A stretch of 54,473 bases of DNA from a virus (IMGVR_UViG_2588253749_000004), one strand, 5' to 3'; shown: positions 21,849 through 48,146, counted from the stretch's first letter. Made by a program: numbers and translations. The notes: a model not told the origin generated them from the sequence alone.

Positions 21849-24015
<2,167 letters not shown>

Positions 24016-28000: not shown

Positions 28001-28358
28001 GGACCCCCACTGGGAGGACCCGACAGCCTGACAACCGTGACGAGCATCTGAAACAGAGCTTTACATAATGGCATGGGGATAATTCAGAAGGACATCACAG
28101 CATGCCCACACAAATTAGTGTGAGTGTCCTGTTTCTTACTACGCGCAGGACTGACGAGCATGAGGGGAAAATACGCGAACCGAAATGCCTTATCTTCAGA
28201 AATGCAGCCGGCATCCGAACTGGACGATATTGTAAATTCACCTAAATACGAGGCATTGCTGTAGTTGAATTGCAGTACTGTATTAGCCTTACAGTGACAG
28301 AATACGATATTGACTCTGTCACTTGTGAAATGGTCAGAATGGTTAGCAGTTATGGTGA

Positions 28359-28565
28359 TCAGTCAACCACCAGGGAATAATCCTTCGTATTCTTATCGTG
28401 CTTTACTAACGCGGCCTCAATTGCCCTGAATGCTTCCAGAGATACTTGATGTTCTATACATGCAATTACAACATCCGGGTAACCCATCGAAATGGTGCTA
28501 TTAAGCATAGTTTTTACACGAACCTGCTCCTGGGAGGGGGCATCAGTGTATTGATCTTTATGCAT
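28359..28565 (-). CDS. Small hypothetical protein (68 aa)
   Basis: ATG at 28565 with GGAG RBS; the longer track ORF (to 28670) borrows its N-terminus from the IS end, and an in-frame stop exists in the pre-insertion sequence. Confidence 0.5.
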
Positions 28566-28659
28566 TTTGTCGCTCCATTCGTTTGCTCGTAAGCGTACAG
28601 CCTGAACCGTCTGGTCAGAATCTGACGAATTAGACAAAGTGGTGTCCACCAAATAAGTA

Positions 28660-29061
28660 GTGGGAACCAAAGTGTCAGATATGCAGAAAAATGTGACTCC
28701 CGGCAGGCGAAAAGGCTGCCCTAATTATCCTCCCGAATTTAAACAGCAGCTCGTTGCTGCCTCCTGTGAACCCGGGATATCCATCTCAAAACTTGCTCTT
28801 GAAAATGGCATTAACGCCAATCTGTTGTTCAAATGGCGACAACAATGGCGCGAGGGAAAGCTGCTATTACCTTCTTCAGAGAGCCCCCAGCTACTTCCTG
28901 TGACTCTCGATGCAGCTGCCGAACAGCCAGAATCGCTCGCAGAGGACCCGAAAACCCTCAGTATCAGCTGTGAGGTAACGTTCCGGCACGGGACGCTCCG
29001 CTTCAATGGCAATGTCAGCGAAAAGCTCCTGACTCTGCTGATACAGGAACTGAAGCGATGA
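28660..29061 (+). CDS. tnpA: IS66-family accessory protein TnpA (Orf1)
   Basis: 133 aa with HTH; first gene of the IS66 three-ORF arrangement. Confidence 0.85.
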
Positions 29062-29405
29062 TCCCGTTACCTTCCGGGACCAAAATTTGGCTGGTTGCCG
29101 GTATCACCGATATGAGAAATGGCTTCAACGGCCTGGCGGCAAAGGTGCAGACGACGCTGAAAGACGATCCGATGTCAGGTCACGTTTTTATCTTCCGTGG
29201 GCGTAATGGCAGTCAGGTAAAGCTCCTCTGGTCTACCGGCGATGGACTGTGTCTGCTGACCAAACGGCTGGAGCGCGGCCGCTTCGCCTGGCCGTCAGCC
29301 CGGGATGGCAAAGTGTTCCTCACACCGGCACAGCTGGCGATGCTCCTTGAAGGTATCGACTGGCGGCAGCCTAAAAGACTGCTTACGTCCCTGACTATGT
29401 TGTAA
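29058..29405 (+). CDS. tnpB: IS66-family TnpB (Orf2)
   Basis: 115 aa; overlaps the tnpA stop (ATGA). Confidence 0.85.
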   Translation: MIPLPSGTKIWLVAGITDMRNGFNGLAAKVQTTLKDDPMSGHVFIFRGRNGSQVKLLWSTGDGLCLLTKRLERGRFAWPSARDGKVFLTPAQLAMLLEGIDWRQPKRLLTSLTML

Positions 29406-29453
29406 GCCTCTTTATCCTGGTCGACGCTGAATGAGCCTGGTAATATACCCGGT

Positions 29454-30992
29454 ATGAGCAGCTCACTTCCTGACGATATCAATGCACTGAAACGTCTCCT
29501 TGCCGAACAGGAGGCGCTGAACCGTGCCCTGCTGGAAAAGCTGAACGAGCGTGAACGCGAAATAGACCATCTGCAGGCACAGCTGGATAAGCTGCGCCGG
29601 ATGAACTTCGGCAGCCGCTCCGAAAAAGTCTCCCGTCGTATCGCACAGATGGAAGCTGACCTGAAGGCACTTCAGAAAGAAAGTGATACCCTTACCGGTC
29701 GGGTTGACGACCCGGCCGTGCAGCGCCCGCTGCGTCAAACCCGCACCCGCAAACCGTTCCCCGAATCACTCCCCCGCGATGAAAAACGGCTGCTGCCGGC
29801 AGCGTCATGCTGCCCGGAATGTGGAGGCTCACTGAGCTATCTGGGTGAGGATGCCGCCGAACAGCTGGAGTTGATGCGCAGCGTCTTCCGGGTTATCCGG
29901 ACTGTACGTGAAAAGCATGCCTGTACTCAGTGCGATGCCATCGTGCAGGCCCCCGCGCCTTCACGGCCCATCGAGCGGGGTATCGCAGGACCGGGGCTGC
30001 TGGCCCGCGTGCTGATCTCAAAGTATGCAGAGCACACCCCGCTGTACCGCCAGTCTGAAATGTACGGCCGCCAGGGCGTGGAGCTGAGTCGTTCACTGCT
30101 GTCGGGCTGGGTGGATGCATGCTGCCGGCTACTGTCACCGCTGGAAGAAGCGCTTCAGGACTATGTGCTGACTGACGGTAAGCTCCATGCTGATGACACG
30201 CCTGTCCCGGTGCTGTTGCCAGGCAATAAGAAAACGAAGACCGGGCGGTTATGGACCTACGTTCGTGACGACCGTAACGCCGGGTCAACGCTGGCGCCGG
30301 CGGTGTGGTTCGCTTACAGCCCGGACAGAAAAGGCATCCATCCGCAGACCCATCTTGCGGGGTTCAGTGGTGTACTGCAGGCGGATGCATACGGCGGGTT
30401 CAACGAGCTGTACCGGGATGGCCGGATAACGGAAGCCGCCTGTTGGGCTCACGCCCGCCGTAAAATCCACGATGTGCACGTTCGCACCCCGTCAGCCCTG
30501 ACGGAGGAAGCGCTGAAACGGATCGGCGAACTGTACGCCATCGAGGCAGAGATAAGGGGAATGACGGCGGAGCAGCGCCTTGCCGAACGTCAGTTGAAAA
30601 CGAAACCGCTGCTGAAATCCCTGGAAAGCTGGCTGCGTGAAAAGATGAAAACCCTGTCGCGACACTCAGAACTGGCGAAAGCGTTCGCATACGCCCTGAA
30701 CCAGTGGCCGGCGCTGACGTACTATGCAGATGATGGCTGGGCTGAGGCGGACAATAACATCGCTGAAAATGCGTTGCGGATGGTCAGTCTGGGCCGCAAA
30801 AACTACCTGTTCTTCGGTTCGGATCATGGAGGAGAGCGGGGAGCGCTGCTGTACAGCCTGATCGGGACGTGCAAACTGAACGGAGTGGAGCCAGAAAGCT
30901 ACCTCCGCTATGTCCTTGACGTCATAGCCGACTGGCCGATAAACCGGGTCGGCGAACTGCTCCCCTGGCGCGTAGCACTGCCGACTGAATAA
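29454..30992 (+). CDS. tnpC: IS66-family transposase TnpC (Orf3)
   Basis: 512 aa; leucine-zipper N-terminus, CxxC zinc motif, DDE-type core. Confidence 0.88.
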
Positions 30993-31309
30993 CACATCCC
31001 CGTCAATACGGTTCTTGCTGCACGCTTACGTTTGCTCTTCACTTGCGGCTAAAAATATAACGTCAAATCACTCAGCATGAAAGAGTGAAAGTTTCAGCGC
31101 GTTTCCCTTACATAATCTGTCGTTTGTATTCTCTTCAGGCATACCGGAAAGACTAGGTATTGTCACATAACCAATACCATCGACAATCGAGATTTATATC
31201 TATTCGGTAATGTTTAAATATAACAAAACCCCGTAAAAACGAGGTTTATGGGTAATTTGTATTGTTGAATAGCATCTGATGAGAAATTGATGCTAATACT
31301 ATAAACATG

Positions 31310-31483
31310 CTAGATTAAATCAATCTTGATATCATAGCTTTCAAGACCAGTCATTTTTTCCCGTGCAGTAAACTGGATACTGGTAACTTCTTTCCCGGTC
31401 TTTTTCTTAAGCTCAATGATTTTTTTTGTTATATATTCAGAAATATCTGCTTCTGTTTTTGTTTTTAACTCTTCAATGTTCAT
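31310..31483 (-). CDS. gnsB: GnsA/GnsB-family small protein
   Basis: 57 aa from the internal Met: MNIEELKTKTEADISEYITKKIIELKKKTGKEVTSIQFTAREKMTGLESYDIKIDLI, matching my recollection of GnsA/GnsB. Confidence 0.8.
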   Translation of the reverse strand: MNIEELKTKTEADISEYITKKIIELKKKTGKEVTSIQFTAREKMTGLESYDIKIDLI

Positions 31484-31747
31484 CATTTCCTCTTTTAGTC
31501 TGTTATGACTGTCCTGGTACACAGTAGTGTCAATTATATGGAGCAAACGTATAAAAGATAAGATGAAACATCGCAATAATCAACATACGACGGTCTAAAT
31601 TTCACACAAACAGATAAAGATGATTATCATTTATTATCAATGCATTAGAATCAAATTAGACTGGCCCCCTGAATCTCCAGACAACCAGTATCACTTAAAT
31701 AAGTGATAGTCTTAATACTAGTTTTTAGACTAGTCATTGGAGAACAG

Positions 31748-32113
31748 ATGATTGATGTCTTAGGGCCGGAGAAACGCAGACGGCGTACCACACAGGAAAA
31801 GATCGCAATTGTTCAGCAGAGCTTTGAACCGGGGATGACGGTCTCCCTCGTTGCCCGGCAACATGGTGTAGCAGCCAGCCAGTTATTTCTCTGGCGTAAG
31901 CAATACCAGGAAGGAAGTCTTACTGCTGTCGCCGCCGGAGAACAGGTTGTTCCTGCCTCTGAACTTGCTGCCGCCATGAAGCAGATTAAAGAACTCCAGC
32001 GCCTGCTCGGCAAGAAAACGATGGAAAATGAACTCCTCAAAGAAGCCGTTGAATATGGACGGGCAAAAAAGTGGATAGCGCACGCGCCCTTATTGCCCGG
32101 GGATGGGGAGTAA
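31748..32113 (+). CDS. insC: IS2 OrfA (InsC)
   Basis: 121 aa starting [14 protein letters not shown]. Confidence 0.95.
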
Positions 32114-32976
32114 GCTTAGTCAGCCGTTGTCTCCGGGTGTCGCGTGCGCAGTTGCACGTCATTCTCAGACGAACCGATGACTGGATGGATGGCCGCCGCA
32201 GTCGTCACACTGATGATACGGATGTGCTTCTCCGTATACACCATGTTATCGGAGAGCTGCCCACGTATGGTTATCGTCGGGTATGGGCGCTGCTTCGCAG
32301 ACAGGCAGAACTTGATGGTATGCCTGCGATCAATGCCAAACGTGTTTACCGGATCATGCGCCAGAATGCGCTGTTGCTTGAGCGAAAACCTGCTGTACCG
32401 CCATCGAAACGGGCACATACAGGCAGAGTGGCCGTGAAAGAAAGCAATCAGCGATGGTGCTCTGACGGGTTCGAGTTCTGCTGTGATAACGGAGAGAGAC
32501 TGCGTGTCACGTTCGCGCTGGACTGCTGTGATCGTGAGGCACTGCACTGGGCGGTGACTACCGGCGGCTTCAACAGTGAAACAGTACAGGACGTCATGCT
32601 GGGAGCGGTGGAACGCCGCTTCGGCAACGATCTTCCGTCGTCTCCAGTGGAGTGGCTGACGGATAATGGTTCATGCTACCGGGCTAATGAAACACGCCAG
32701 TTCGCCCGGATGTTGGGACTTGAACCGAAGAACACGGCGGTGCGGAGTCCGGAGAGTAACGGAATAGCAGAGAGCTTCGTGAAAACGATAAAGCGTGACT
32801 ACATCAGTATCATGCCCAAACCAGACGGGTTAACGGCAGCAAAGAACCTTGCAGAGGCGTTCGAGCATTATAACGAATGGCATCCGCATAGTGCGCTGGG
32901 TTATCGCTCGCCACGGGAATATCTGCGGCAGCGGGCTTGTAATGGGTTAAGTGATAACAGATGTCTGGAAATATAG
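32071..32976 (+). CDS. insD: IS2 OrfB transposase (InsD)
   Basis: 301 aa with DDE integrase core; overlaps insC (frameshift fusion expected). Confidence 0.95.
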
Positions 32977-32991
32977 GGGCAAATCCACAAA

Positions 32992-33222
32992 TCAATTCAA
33001 GAGTCTCATTGCTGCTTCCAGAATTTCTTCTGAAGTTACATGTCGATCCGCTGCTACATAAATGACTTTATGATCTCCGGTCAGAGATGGAAACCCTGCG
33101 GCCATTACAGTGAGGTGTGTTTTTTCGCCATTTGGATATTCACGCATGATGGTGTTAACTCCAGTCATCGCTGGCACTACCACTGCTGGTTCAGAGTTAA
33201 AAAAAACTATGATTTTTTTCAT
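32992..33222 (-). CDS. Small hypothetical protein (about 76 aa)
   Basis: ORF from the internal Met MKKIIVFF; its TGA stop overlaps the IS2 target-site duplication. Confidence 0.4.
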   Translation of the reverse strand: MKKIIVFFNSEPAVVVPAMTGVNTIMREYPNGEKTHLTVMAAGFPSLTGDHKVIYVAADRHVTSEEILEAAMRLLN

Positions 33223-33493
33223 GATGTTACCGTAGTATGTGAGTATCCATCGAATAGATACCAAGCAAAAAAGCTCCCGAAGGAGCCTTCATTTTCACTT
33301 TTTTAAATCCAACGACAGACGGCTGGCATTTAAGTATTGTGAAATATTATCAAATGTAATCATCATTGATTTACAAAAGATACATTTTGCCCCGAAAGGA
33401 TTCATGTCAGAAACATCAAAAGATGATGTTCTATACTGGGAACCATGACAACACGGGCATCTAAAGTGAATATGGTTTGTAATATTGTCTACC

Positions 33494-33706
33494 TCAAAGC
33501 GCCACTACATGAACAGCGGCAGGACCTTTAGGTCCGTTCTCAATACCAAATTCAACTTCCTGATTCTCAGTTAATGTTTTGAAATCGTTGCTCTGAATTG
33601 CTGAGAAATGGACAAACACATCTTTGCTGCCATCTTTCGGCGTGATGAAACCAAAACCTTTTTCAGGGTTAAACCATTTCACTAAACCAGTCATTTTGTT
33701 AGACAT
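33494..33706 (-). CDS. cspI: Cold-shock protein CspI-like
   Basis: 70 aa; CSD motifs [12 protein letters not shown] and VFVHF. Confidence 0.9.
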
Positions 33707-34069
33707 AATTATTACCTTTTGAAGAAATTAGCCCTTGGGCAGAATGGTCCGAAAAAAAATATCAGAGAGAAAAACCAACAAGGAAATCTCAAGAGGTACA
33801 AATAATAAAATTATAACAATGACTGCTTCAGATAAATTTGTAACAAACCAGAACACCATTAACGCATGATTAACCACCCATAGCAAGGATTACTTTTGTA
33901 AAGAAAAACACAGCAATGAAAGAATAGCTTTATTTATTAATAATAACGTGTCATTCTGATTAAGACCTTTTATCTTACCCTTAAGATTTCAGGAATTTTG
34001 GCTCATGGAAGAGTCCTTTTTATTTAAATTTTACATTCCGCGATGTAAATGTTCCGATTTAATATTACC

Positions 34070-47570: not shown

Positions 47571-48146
47571 ATGGATTTCGACACAATCATGGAAAAGGCT
47601 TACGAAGAATACTTCGAAGGTCTTGCCGAAGGCGAAGAAGCTCTCAGCTTCAGTGAGTTTAAACAGGCACTCAGAATAAGAATGTGCTCTCACAATGACG
47701 CGGAGCACAAATATGAGAAGCAAAATCAGACCGCAGAAAATTTTGTTCTGGAACCCGGAGAAACGCTTTTCAAAATTCCCGTTACGTGCCCCATTTGCGG
47801 TTTTACATCAGAAGAACTTGACGACTCCTGTAACAATCAGGAAACAACCAAGTATGTCGAAGATGATACCGAGTGCGCACTAAGAACGATTATATCCACG
47901 AGTCCAAACTCCAGGACCAATAAATCTCACTTTGAGAGGGTGATTAATCCACTCCCCCAAACCAATAAAAAAGATGCCGGAGGACAAAAAACCCAATGGA
48001 ACAACGGGATATCTGTCAAAAAAAGACGTTCCATTAAAGACAAACAACGCAGCGCCAACAACTGTAAGCGCTTTATACCAGTAATCAATTTTCATGTTCT
48101 TAAGCGGATTTATTGGTGGTTGCGACATTGCTTAATGAATCCTTAA
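47571..48146 (+). CDS. Hypothetical early protein with CxxC zinc-ribbon-like motif
   Basis: ORF from MDFDTIMEKAYEEY...; the C-terminal third is low-complexity and overlaps a minus-strand membrane ORF, so the true extent is uncertain. Confidence 0.35.
   Translation: MDFDTIMEKAYEEYFEGLAEGEEALSFSEFKQALRIRMCSHNDAEHKYEKQNQTAENFVLEPGETLFKIPVTCPICGFTSEELDDSCNNQETTKYVEDDTECALRTIISTSPNSRTNKSHFERVINPLPQTNKKDAGGQKTQWNNGISVKKRRSIKDKQRSANNCKRFIPVINFHVLKRIYWWLRHCLMNP
47880..48128 (-). CDS. Possible small 2-TM membrane protein
   Basis: 82-aa ORF with two hydrophobic segments; antisense to the previous ORF, so one of the two may be spurious. Confidence 0.3.
   Translation of the reverse strand: MSQPPINPLKNMKIDYWYKALTVVGAALFVFNGTSFFDRYPVVPLGFLSSGIFFIGLGEWINHPLKVRFIGPGVWTRGYNRS

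What the first reader, a model, noticed from the sequence alone, without database searches (positions are those of the whole stretch)
28565..31037. IS66-family element inserted 24 bp upstream of a small gene, between its likely promoter and RBS
A 2441-bp element with GTAAGCG... terminal repeats and a perfect 8-bp duplication GTTTGCTC sits just upstream of the ATG at 28565. The annotated 103-aa ORF is an artefact that reads into the IS end; the real gene is probably 68 aa. The insertion may silence the gene or drive it from an IS-borne promoter.
Basis: seen in the sequence. Interest (0 to 1): 0.4.

Follow-up and report, generated by a model that had tools for sequence, protein, structure and literature searches.

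The report
ISEc22 insertion upstream of prophage ybcW-like gene
A well-known jumping gene (ISEc22, IS66 family) has recently landed 23 bases in front of a tiny, function-unknown gene of a decaying lambda-like prophage in E. coli; this cuts the gene off from its upstream signals and is an ordinary event.

Summary
Window 28589-31029 is an intact 2441-bp IS66-family element. It has GTAAGCG-type terminal inverted repeats, tnpA/tnpB/tnpC on the + strand, and a perfect 8-bp duplication GTTTGCTC.

RefSeq names it ISEc22, not ISEc8 or ISEc23; an ISEc8 copy is only 88.6% identical. Copies 100% identical occur on chromosomes and plasmids of related human stool strains.

Removing the IS and one duplication copy rebuilds a site found at 100% identity in many E. 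coli genomes and in phage HannyBb. The occupied site occurs in 1 of 5426 complete genomes (TW10573).

The small minus-strand gene (28359-28565, 68 aa) is a homologue of K-12 YbcW and lambda lambdap79, function unknown. In the empty site a TGA lies 8 codons upstream of its ATG. The 103-aa ORF is therefore a chimera created by the insertion.

The element lies in the late transcription unit of a Qin-position prophage that also carries IS2 and IS100. It faces away from the gene, and I found no convincing outward promoter. Silencing or strong reduction is the likeliest effect, but this is inferred, not shown. The finding is correct, ordinary and already annotated.

The parts
28589..31029 (+). Complete ISEc22 (IS66 family), 2441 bp
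   Evidence: 100% identical full-length copies in several E. coli chromosomes and plasmids, annotated 'IS66-like element ISEc22 family transposase' with tnpA and tnpB. It is the only copy in the window. GC is about 58%, against 32-43% in the flanks.
28589..28610 (+). Left terminal inverted repeat (IRL, tnpA-proximal), GTAAGCGTACAGCCTGAACCGT
   Evidence: Pairs with 31008-31029 at 19 of 22 positions.
31008..31029 (+). Right terminal inverted repeat (IRR), ...ACGGTTCTTGCTGCACGCTTAC
28581..28588 (.). Left copy of the 8-bp target-site duplication GTTTGCTC
   Evidence: Present once in empty-site genomes.
31030..31037 (.). Right copy of the 8-bp target-site duplication GTTTGCTC
28681..29061 (+). tnpA, accessory protein with HTH_Tnp_1 domain. 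Start as called by RefSeq; the longest ORF starts at GTG 28660.
   Evidence: Pfam PF01527, E 1.7e-12. NCBIfam IS66 TnpA. RefSeq WP_001466366.1.
29058..29405 (+). tnpB (IS66 Orf2-like). Its start overlaps the tnpA stop in ATGA.
   Evidence: Pfam PF05717, E 1.6e-38. NCBIfam IS66_TnpB. The overlap is seen.
29454..30992 (+). tnpC, DDE transposase of 512 aa
   Evidence: Pfam DDE_Tnp_IS66 matched over 1-283 of 284 positions, E 1.6e-106, plus the LZ, zf-IS66 and C-terminal domains. NCBIfam transpos_IS66, E 6e-140.
28359..28565 (-). ybcW / lambdap79-family gene, 68 aa, function unknown (RefSeq WP_000548593.1)
   Evidence: RefSeq annotation. PHROG 657 matched 1-68 of 68, E 4.6e-48. 79% identical to the lambda and K-12 copies. 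Start Met is invariant in the alignment.
28573..28576 (-). Shine-Dalgarno GGAG, 7 nt before the ATG. It is left intact by the insertion.
   Evidence: Read from the sequence. Conserved in lambda and K-12 DLP12.
28566..28670 (-). Artefactual 35-codon N-terminal extension that produces the 103-aa ORF. It starts at a TTG inside the IS.
   Evidence: The extension is IS and duplication sequence. No SD precedes the TTG. The same 103-aa product exists once in a database as a mis-call (P0001).
31039..31041 (-). In-frame TGA that closes the reading frame 8 codons upstream of the ATG in the uninterrupted site. The IS now separates it from the gene.
   Evidence: Translation of the reconstructed empty site.
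31054..31081 (-). Weak candidate native promoter: -35 TTCATG at 31081-31076, 16-nt spacer, -10 TATATT at 31059-31054. The predicted start is about 10 nt upstream of the insertion point.
   Evidence: Home-made PWM score 6.4, below the window's background median of 6.8. The same elements are conserved upstream of lambda lambdap79 and K-12 ybcW. This is a candidate only.
31226..31247 (-). Intrinsic-terminator-like hairpin plus T-run after gnsB. It marks the upstream limit of the small gene's own control region.

Best explanation
An intact, probably active ISEc22 (IS66 family) transposed into the leader of a ybcW/lambdap79-family gene of a Qin-position lambdoid prophage. This happened in an ancestor shared with strain TW10573.

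Shown:
- The insertion duplicated 8 bp (GTTTGCTC).
- It left the coding sequence and Shine-Dalgarno intact.
- It placed 2.4 kb of IS DNA between the gene and everything upstream of position -24. That includes the in-frame stop codon, which is why a spurious 103-aa ORF appears.
- The IS genes point away from the small gene.

Inferred:
- Transcription from the gene's own control region, or from the phage late promoter, must now cross the whole IS antisense to reach the gene.
- No convincing outward promoter exists at the IS end.
- The most likely effect is loss or strong reduction of expression of the small gene in the lysogen, plus one more obstacle in the late operon.
- The prophage is already decaying: it carries IS2 upstream of gnsB and IS100 in the portal gene, and its sister prophage in TW10573 has IS3-family and IS1 elements in the exonuclease region.
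- No benefit to the host needs to be assumed.
For: - Anatomy of the element.
- Identity: 100% identical ISEc22 copies elsewhere, including one copy on TW10573's 78-kb plasmid and exactly one on its chromosome.
- Empty site: 100% identical in many chromosomes (example ECCWS199) and in the sequenced phage HannyBb.
- Occupied site: 1 of 5426 genomes.
- Shared descent: the window is not TW10573. It lacks that strain's ISEc43 and has an extra IS100, yet shares the ISEc22 and IS2 insertions. These two are therefore inherited and older.
- Gene length: 68 aa is the conserved form.
- Late-operon position: the gene order is Q, holin, lysozyme, Rz, cspI, ynfN, gnsB, the 68-aa gene, terminase small subunit-like DUF1441 gene, terminase, portal, all on the minus strand. 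The lambda homologue lies at 47738-47944, just before cos.
- Promoters: no outward promoter-like site above background at the IRL. The best score is 6.6, against a background median of 6.8 and a 90th percentile of 9.3. The consensus scan found none on the minus strand.
- Precedent: the IS66-family element ISCro1 in the afa regulatory region lowered afaA transcript by 2.5 log2 and lowered promoter activity (PMC8764528).
- A promoter-trap screen in Paracoccus localised outward promoters in tested IS3-, IS5- and IS21-family elements. The passages read name no IS66-family element in that role (PMC3281130).
Against: - There are no transcript data, so silencing is inferred.
- The native promoter could not be located above background. 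The size of the loss is therefore unknown.
- Q-modified RNA polymerase reads through terminators (established knowledge of lambda). After induction, late transcription might still cross the IS.
- Weak sigma-70-like matches do exist at the IS end, for example TTCTGA-17-TACGCT ending 26 nt before the ATG, score 5.2.
- The quoted length of the reference ISEc22 is 2454 bp (PMC5001619), against 2441 bp here. The name rests on RefSeq's transposase naming, not on an alignment to the reference.
Confidence: 0.85

Rival explanations
1. The IS drives the small gene. An outward-facing promoter in the left end of ISEc22, or a hybrid promoter spanning the junction, replaces the native promoter and keeps or raises expression.
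For: The Shine-Dalgarno and coding sequence are intact, only 23 nt from the IS end. Weak matches exist on the outward strand: TGGACA-18-CAGATT (score 6.6) and TTCTGA-17-TACGCT (score 5.2). Other IS families are known to do this (PMC8764528, PMC3281130).
Against: These scores are at or below what random 233-nt pieces of the same window give (median 6.8). The stricter consensus scan finds none. The end next to the gene is the tnpA-proximal end, whose known task is inward transcription. The one measured IS66-family case read here, ISCro1, reduced expression.
Confidence: 0.1
2. The gene is still expressed by read-through. Transcripts from the native control region at 31038-31225, or from the Q-antiterminated late promoter, cross the 2.4-kb IS antisense and reach the gene. 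The insertion would then be nearly neutral for expression, at least after induction.
For: The gene lies in line with the late operon. Only two weak terminator-like hairpins lie on the minus strand inside the IS (28761-28745 and 29803-29789), and the total count is no higher than in shuffled sequence (4 found against 3.2 expected). Q-modified polymerase ignores terminators (established lambda biology).
Against: A 2.4-kb untranslated antisense RNA is a typical substrate for Rho-dependent termination in uninduced cells (established knowledge, not tested here). IS2 also sits further upstream in the same transcription unit.
Confidence: 0.2
3. The 103-aa ORF is a real fusion protein made from the IS end and the small gene.
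For: The frame is open from TTG 28670. One database entry has the same 103-aa product (P0001).
Against: The extension is IS and duplication sequence. No Shine-Dalgarno precedes the TTG. The empty site has a stop 8 codons upstream of the ATG. Homologues are about 68 aa with an invariant first Met. RefSeq aa. No assembly on record encodes exactly this product.
Confidence: 0.02

Closest known systems
ISEc22 (IS66 family; ISfinder name as used by RefSeq/PGAP)
   Same: The transposase is named 'ISEc22 family' in every top hit. Copies are 100% identical over all 2441 bp. Published ISEc22 insertions also give 8-bp direct repeats (PMC4048246).
   Different: The reference length is quoted as 2454 bp (PMC5001619), against 2441 bp here. 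I could not align to the ISfinder entry.
ISEc8 / ISEc23
   Same: Same family, same three-gene layout, same GTAAGCG ends and 8-bp duplication. An ISEc8 copy in strain Res13-Lact-PEA14-20 shows all of these.
   Different: Only 88.6% nucleotide identity to ISEc8. By the usual IS-naming convention that makes it a different element. ISEc23 was not compared.
ISCro1 (IS66 family) in the afaF-afaA regulatory region of E. coli ST131
   Same: An IS66-family element sits upstream of a gene in an AT-rich regulatory region. The measured effect was reduced transcription and promoter activity (PMC8764528).
   Different: That insertion is 440 bp upstream of the start codon, within a regulatory region. This one is 23 nt from the ATG, in a prophage gene of unknown function. 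No measurements exist here.
K-12 DLP12 ybcW (b0559) and phage lambda lambdap79
   Same: 68 aa and 79% identical. The position is the same, between the lysis cassette and cos/terminase. The roughly 115-bp upstream block and the GGAG are conserved.
   Different: In K-12 and lambda the upstream neighbour is divergent (ybcV / lambdap78). The FNR-bound sequence reported in K-12 (PMC1802558) appears as TGTTGATGATTTATGTCAAATATT, about 180-200 nt upstream of the ATG. Here the upstream neighbour is co-directional gnsB with its terminator, and that sequence is absent.

Membership tests
IS66 family of insertion sequences | DDE transposase of the IS66 type (TnpC) with N-terminal leucine-zipper and zinc-finger regions | tested here: met
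   PF03050 matched over 1-283 of 284 positions, E 1.6e-106, plus PF13007, PF13005 and PF13817. NF033517, E 6e-140.
IS66 family of insertion sequences | Two accessory genes, tnpA and tnpB, upstream of the transposase, with the tnpB start overlapping the tnpA stop | tested here: met
   PF01527 and PF05717. NF047595 and NF033819. ATGA overlap at 29058-29061.
IS66 family of insertion sequences | Imperfect terminal inverted repeats of about 20-30 bp beginning 5'-GTAAGCG | tested here: met
   19 of 22 positions match and both ends start GTAAGCGT. ISEc8 and ISEc43 copies have the same ends.
IS66 family of insertion sequences | 8-bp target-site duplication | tested here: met
   GTTTGCTC on both sides, present once in the empty site. 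8-bp repeats are listed for IS66-family elements in PMC3281130 and for ISEc22 in PMC4048246.
ISEc22 (specific element) | At least 95% nucleotide identity to the ISfinder reference sequence | not testable with these tools
   No ISfinder copy is available. The indirect basis is RefSeq naming of the transposase in 100%-identical copies. The length differs from the quoted 2454 bp.
YbcW / lambdap79 family (PHROG 657) | Full-length sequence match to the family profile and to named members | tested here: met
   PHROG 657 matched 1-68 of 68, E 4.6e-48. 79% identical to K-12 YbcW and lambda lambdap79. No Pfam or NCBIfam family matches.
YbcW / lambdap79 family (PHROG 657) | Conserved position at the end of the lambdoid lysis/accessory region, just before cos and the small terminase gene | tested here: met
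IS elements that activate neighbouring genes (outward or hybrid promoter) | A sigma-70-like promoter, or an outward -35 box, at the IS end facing the gene, at a workable distance | tested here: not met
   Nothing above background on the outward strand of the IRL or the junction. This is a sequence prediction only. Promoter activity itself is not testable here.

The most novel reading that the evidence does not exclude
The AT-rich accessory segment between the lysis genes and cos of Qin-type prophages may be a preferred landing zone for IS66-family elements, in one orientation.

Three different family members sit within about 1.1 kb of native DNA in different strains:
- ISEc22 in this window.
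- ISEc43 in TW10573, at window 31574-31581.
- ISEc8 in Res13-Lact-PEA14-20, at about window 28082-28090.

All three have their tnp genes opposite to phage late transcription. In K-12, Hha was reported to bind the ybcW region and induce the gene. That would hint at target choice guided by nucleoid-protein-coated AT-rich DNA. With only three cases, and with relaxed selection in a dead prophage as the obvious alternative, this is weak.
Probability: 0.08. Interest if true: 0.35.

Novelty: already known. Interest (0 to 1): 0.1.

Why it matters
It matters little beyond good annotation.

- The finding shows how an IS insertion creates a spurious longer ORF (103 aa instead of 68 aa). One database already holds this mis-called product.
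- The shared ISEc22 and IS2 insertions, against the strain-specific ISEc43 and IS100, give a small lineage marker and an order of events for the decay of a Qin-type prophage in TW10573-like human stool strains.
- The affected gene belongs to a tiny family restricted to lambdoid phages (lambda lambdap79, K-12 ybcW) with no known function. A natural promoter-disconnected allele could serve as a comparison strain if anyone studies that gene.

Tried and rejected
- Promoter location, consensus scans: scans of the occupied site and of the empty-site locus gave no minus-strand promoter in the relevant intervals. Counts were no higher than in shuffles.
- Promoter location, PWM scan: a home-made scan found only sub-background candidates in the native upstream region, the IS end and K-12 ybcW.
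- Published start-site data for K-12 ybcW: one paper had no supplementary text held and another was not in the library. The 2006 FNR ChIP paper lists the distance from its ybcW site to a transcription start as unknown.
- Function of the 68-aa protein: no Pfam or NCBIfam family. PHROG 657 is 'unknown function'. An AlphaFold model (three helices, pLDDT 78.8) had no Foldseek match in the PDB. An exhaustive search of 1.84 billion representatives gave only 122 hits, mostly fragments.
- Other assemblies with the chimeric 103-aa product: none on record.
- Known RNA families near the junctions: none. The only hit in the region is the cspA thermoregulator at 33467-33852.
- Rejected idea, 'second genome with the same insertion': hit H42 has a different element (ISEc8) about 500 bp away, on the other side of the gene.

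Full report
**1. The observation**

The sequence shows an element from 28589 to 31029 (2441 bp).
- Its ends are GTAAGCGTACAGCCTGAACCGT and, as reverse complement, GTAAGCGTGCAGCAAGAACCGT. They match at 19 of 22 positions.
- GTTTGCTC abuts both ends, at 28581-28588 and 31030-31037.
- The + strand carries three ORFs.
  - tnpA runs 28681-29061 (RefSeq start). It has an HTH_Tnp_1 domain.
  - tnpB runs 29058-29405. It is IS66 Orf2-like, and its start overlaps the tnpA stop in ATGA.
  - tnpC runs 29454-30992 (512 aa). It has a full-length DDE_Tnp_IS66 match plus the leucine-zipper, zinc-finger and C-terminal domains.

**2. It is an insertion, and a recent one**

- I joined the flanks with a single copy of the 8-mer. 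This 800-bp reconstruction matches many E. coli chromosomes at 100% over its full length, and 962 genomes cover at least 80% of it.
- The same uninterrupted junction is present in the sequenced phage HannyBb.
- The occupied configuration is found in one of 5426 complete genomes: TW10573, human stool, Guinea-Bissau.
- The element is 100% identical to copies on chromosomes and plasmids of a few related human isolates. TW10573 has one copy on a 78-kb plasmid and exactly one on its chromosome.
- All top hits are annotated 'IS66-like element ISEc22 family transposase'. An ISEc8 copy is only 88.6% identical. The name is therefore ISEc22, not ISEc8/ISEc23.
- One loose end remains. A paper quotes ISEc22 as 2454 bp (PMC5001619), and I could not align to the ISfinder reference.

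**3. The window is not TW10573 itself**

- It lacks that strain's ISEc43, which sits at window 31574-31581 with the duplication CAATAATC.
- It has an IS100 in the portal gene that TW10573 lacks.
- Both share the ISEc22 and the IS2 (31657-32987, 5-bp duplication CAAAT).
- Those two insertions are therefore inherited from a common ancestor and predate the strain-specific ones. This ordering is an inference.

**4. The small gene**

- The minus-strand ORF 28359-28565 encodes 68 aa (WP_000548593.1 in RefSeq).
- It is 79% identical to K-12 DLP12 YbcW and to lambda lambdap79 at 47738-47944.
- It matches PHROG 657 ('unknown function') over 1-68 of 68 positions.
- All aligned homologues share the same first Met.
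- In the empty site an in-frame TGA lies 8 codons upstream of the ATG, with no start codon between them. The IS now separates that stop (31039-31041) from the gene.
- The frame therefore stays open 35 codons into the IS, to a TTG at 28670 that has no Shine-Dalgarno. A single database entry carries the same mis-call (P0001).
- The family is tiny: 122 representatives among 1.84 billion proteins.
- It has no Pfam or NCBIfam model.
- A three-helix AlphaFold model (pLDDT 78.8) has no PDB fold match.
- For K-12 ybcW, the literature read here reports:
  - a 8.9-fold lower mRNA level in a pdhR deletion mutant (PMC7660256);
  - an FNR ChIP target (PMC1802558);
  - binding and induction by Hha (PMC2408971).
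- None of these papers assigns a function.

**5. Context**

- RefSeq annotation of the collinear TW10573 region shows a Qin-position lambdoid prophage. It runs from an integrase at one end to pinQ, ydfK and a truncated ydfJ at the other.
- On the minus strand of the window the order is: Q, holin, ydfR, lysozyme, Rz, cspI, ymcF, ynfR, ynfN, [IS2], gnsB, [ISEc22], the 68-aa gene, a DUF1441 (Nu1-like) gene, large terminase, portal [IS100], and the capsid and tail genes.
- As in lambda, the small gene lies in line with the late transcription unit, just before the packaging genes (plus established lambda biology).
- A terminator-like hairpin follows gnsB at 31247-31226.
- A block of about 115 bp upstream of the ATG is conserved with lambda and DLP12, although the upstream neighbours differ. 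This suggests the block holds the gene's own leader and control region. That is an inference.

**6. Effect on expression (inferred)**

- Only 23 nt remain between the IS and the ATG. They include GGAG at -11 to -8, which is intact.
- A sigma-70 promoter needs about 35 nt upstream of its start point. Any native promoter is therefore displaced or broken by geometry alone.
- I could not identify that promoter. The consensus scans found nothing on the minus strand.
- A PWM scan gave only sub-background candidates.
  - The best conserved one is TTCATG-16-TATATT at 31081-31054, score 6.4, against a background median of 6.8.
- It would place the start about 10 nt upstream of the insertion point.
- On the outward strand of the IS left end, the best matches score 6.6 and 5.2, again at or below background.
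- The IS genes are divergent from the small gene, so their promoter cannot serve it.
- The one measured IS66-family precedent I read, ISCro1 upstream of afaA, lowered transcription and promoter activity (PMC8764528).
- A promoter-trap study localised outward promoters in tested IS3-, IS5- and IS21-family elements. The passages read name no IS66-family element in that role (PMC3281130).
- I therefore favour silencing or strong reduction in the lysogen. Read-through across the IS (about 0.2, chiefly after Q-dependent induction) and IS-driven expression (about 0.1) remain as rivals.

**7. Comparison with the known, and verdict**

- All four defining features of the IS66 family were tested and met.
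- Membership of the small gene in the YbcW/lambdap79 family is also met.
- The defining feature of 'activating' IS insertions, a usable outward promoter or -35 box, was not met by sequence prediction.
- Element, gene and insertion are all already annotated in RefSeq for TW10573.
- This is a correct reading of an ordinary event: one IS hop in a prophage that is being eroded by several IS elements. Interest is low.
- The only mildly unusual point is that three different IS66-family elements, all in the same orientation, occupy the same 1.1-kb AT-rich segment in different strains (GC 32-43%). With three cases this may simply reflect relaxed selection.

Noticed in passing
window 31657-32987 (duplications at 31652-31656 and 32988-32992): A complete IS2 (1331 bp, 5-bp duplication CAAAT) sits at the 3' end of ynfN, 168 bp upstream of the gnsB start. 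It is divergent from gnsB. The site is empty in ECCWS199 and in phage HannyBb. gnsB is thus bracketed by IS2 and ISEc22.
   Followed up: partly
window about 22011-23954 (istB 22077-22859, istA 22856-23878, minus strand): An IS100 (IS21 family) interrupts the phage portal gene. It is absent from the otherwise near-identical TW10573 prophage. The window therefore comes from a sister strain, and this prophage cannot make particles.
   Followed up: partly
window 31574-31581; L001 9394-11934: TW10573 carries an extra IS66-family element, ISEc43 (duplication CAATAATC), between gnsB and IS2. The window lacks it.
   Followed up: partly
window about 28082-28090; L003 3002-5442: Strain Res13-Lact-PEA14-20 has an ISEc8 (duplication ATTCAGAA) on the other side of the same small gene, between it and the DUF1441 gene. 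ISEc22, ISEc43 and ISEc8 all have their tnp genes opposite to phage late transcription, within about 1.1 kb of native AT-rich DNA.
   Followed up: partly
window 33467-33852, minus strand: There is a full-length match to the Rfam cspA thermoregulator (RF01766, 112.8 bits, E 6e-29), lying just upstream of the prophage cold-shock gene cspI and overlapping its start.
   Followed up: no
window 28294-28322: An inverted repeat, GTGACAGA-N13-TCTGTCAC, lies just downstream of the small gene's stop and has no T-run. It could be a transcript-end or cos-region feature.
   Followed up: no
window 31310-31483, minus strand: gnsB (GnsA/GnsB family, Pfam PF08178, E 8e-33). The mechanical ORF list extends it to 88 aa from a TTG, while RefSeq aa. 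This is another over-long ORF call in the same neighbourhood.
   Followed up: no
L004 1390-5256 (TW10573; corresponds to the right-hand part of the window): In TW10573's annotation, an IS3-family element and an IS1A break up the prophage exonuclease gene into partial pseudogenes. I did not check whether the window carries the same two insertions.
   Followed up: no
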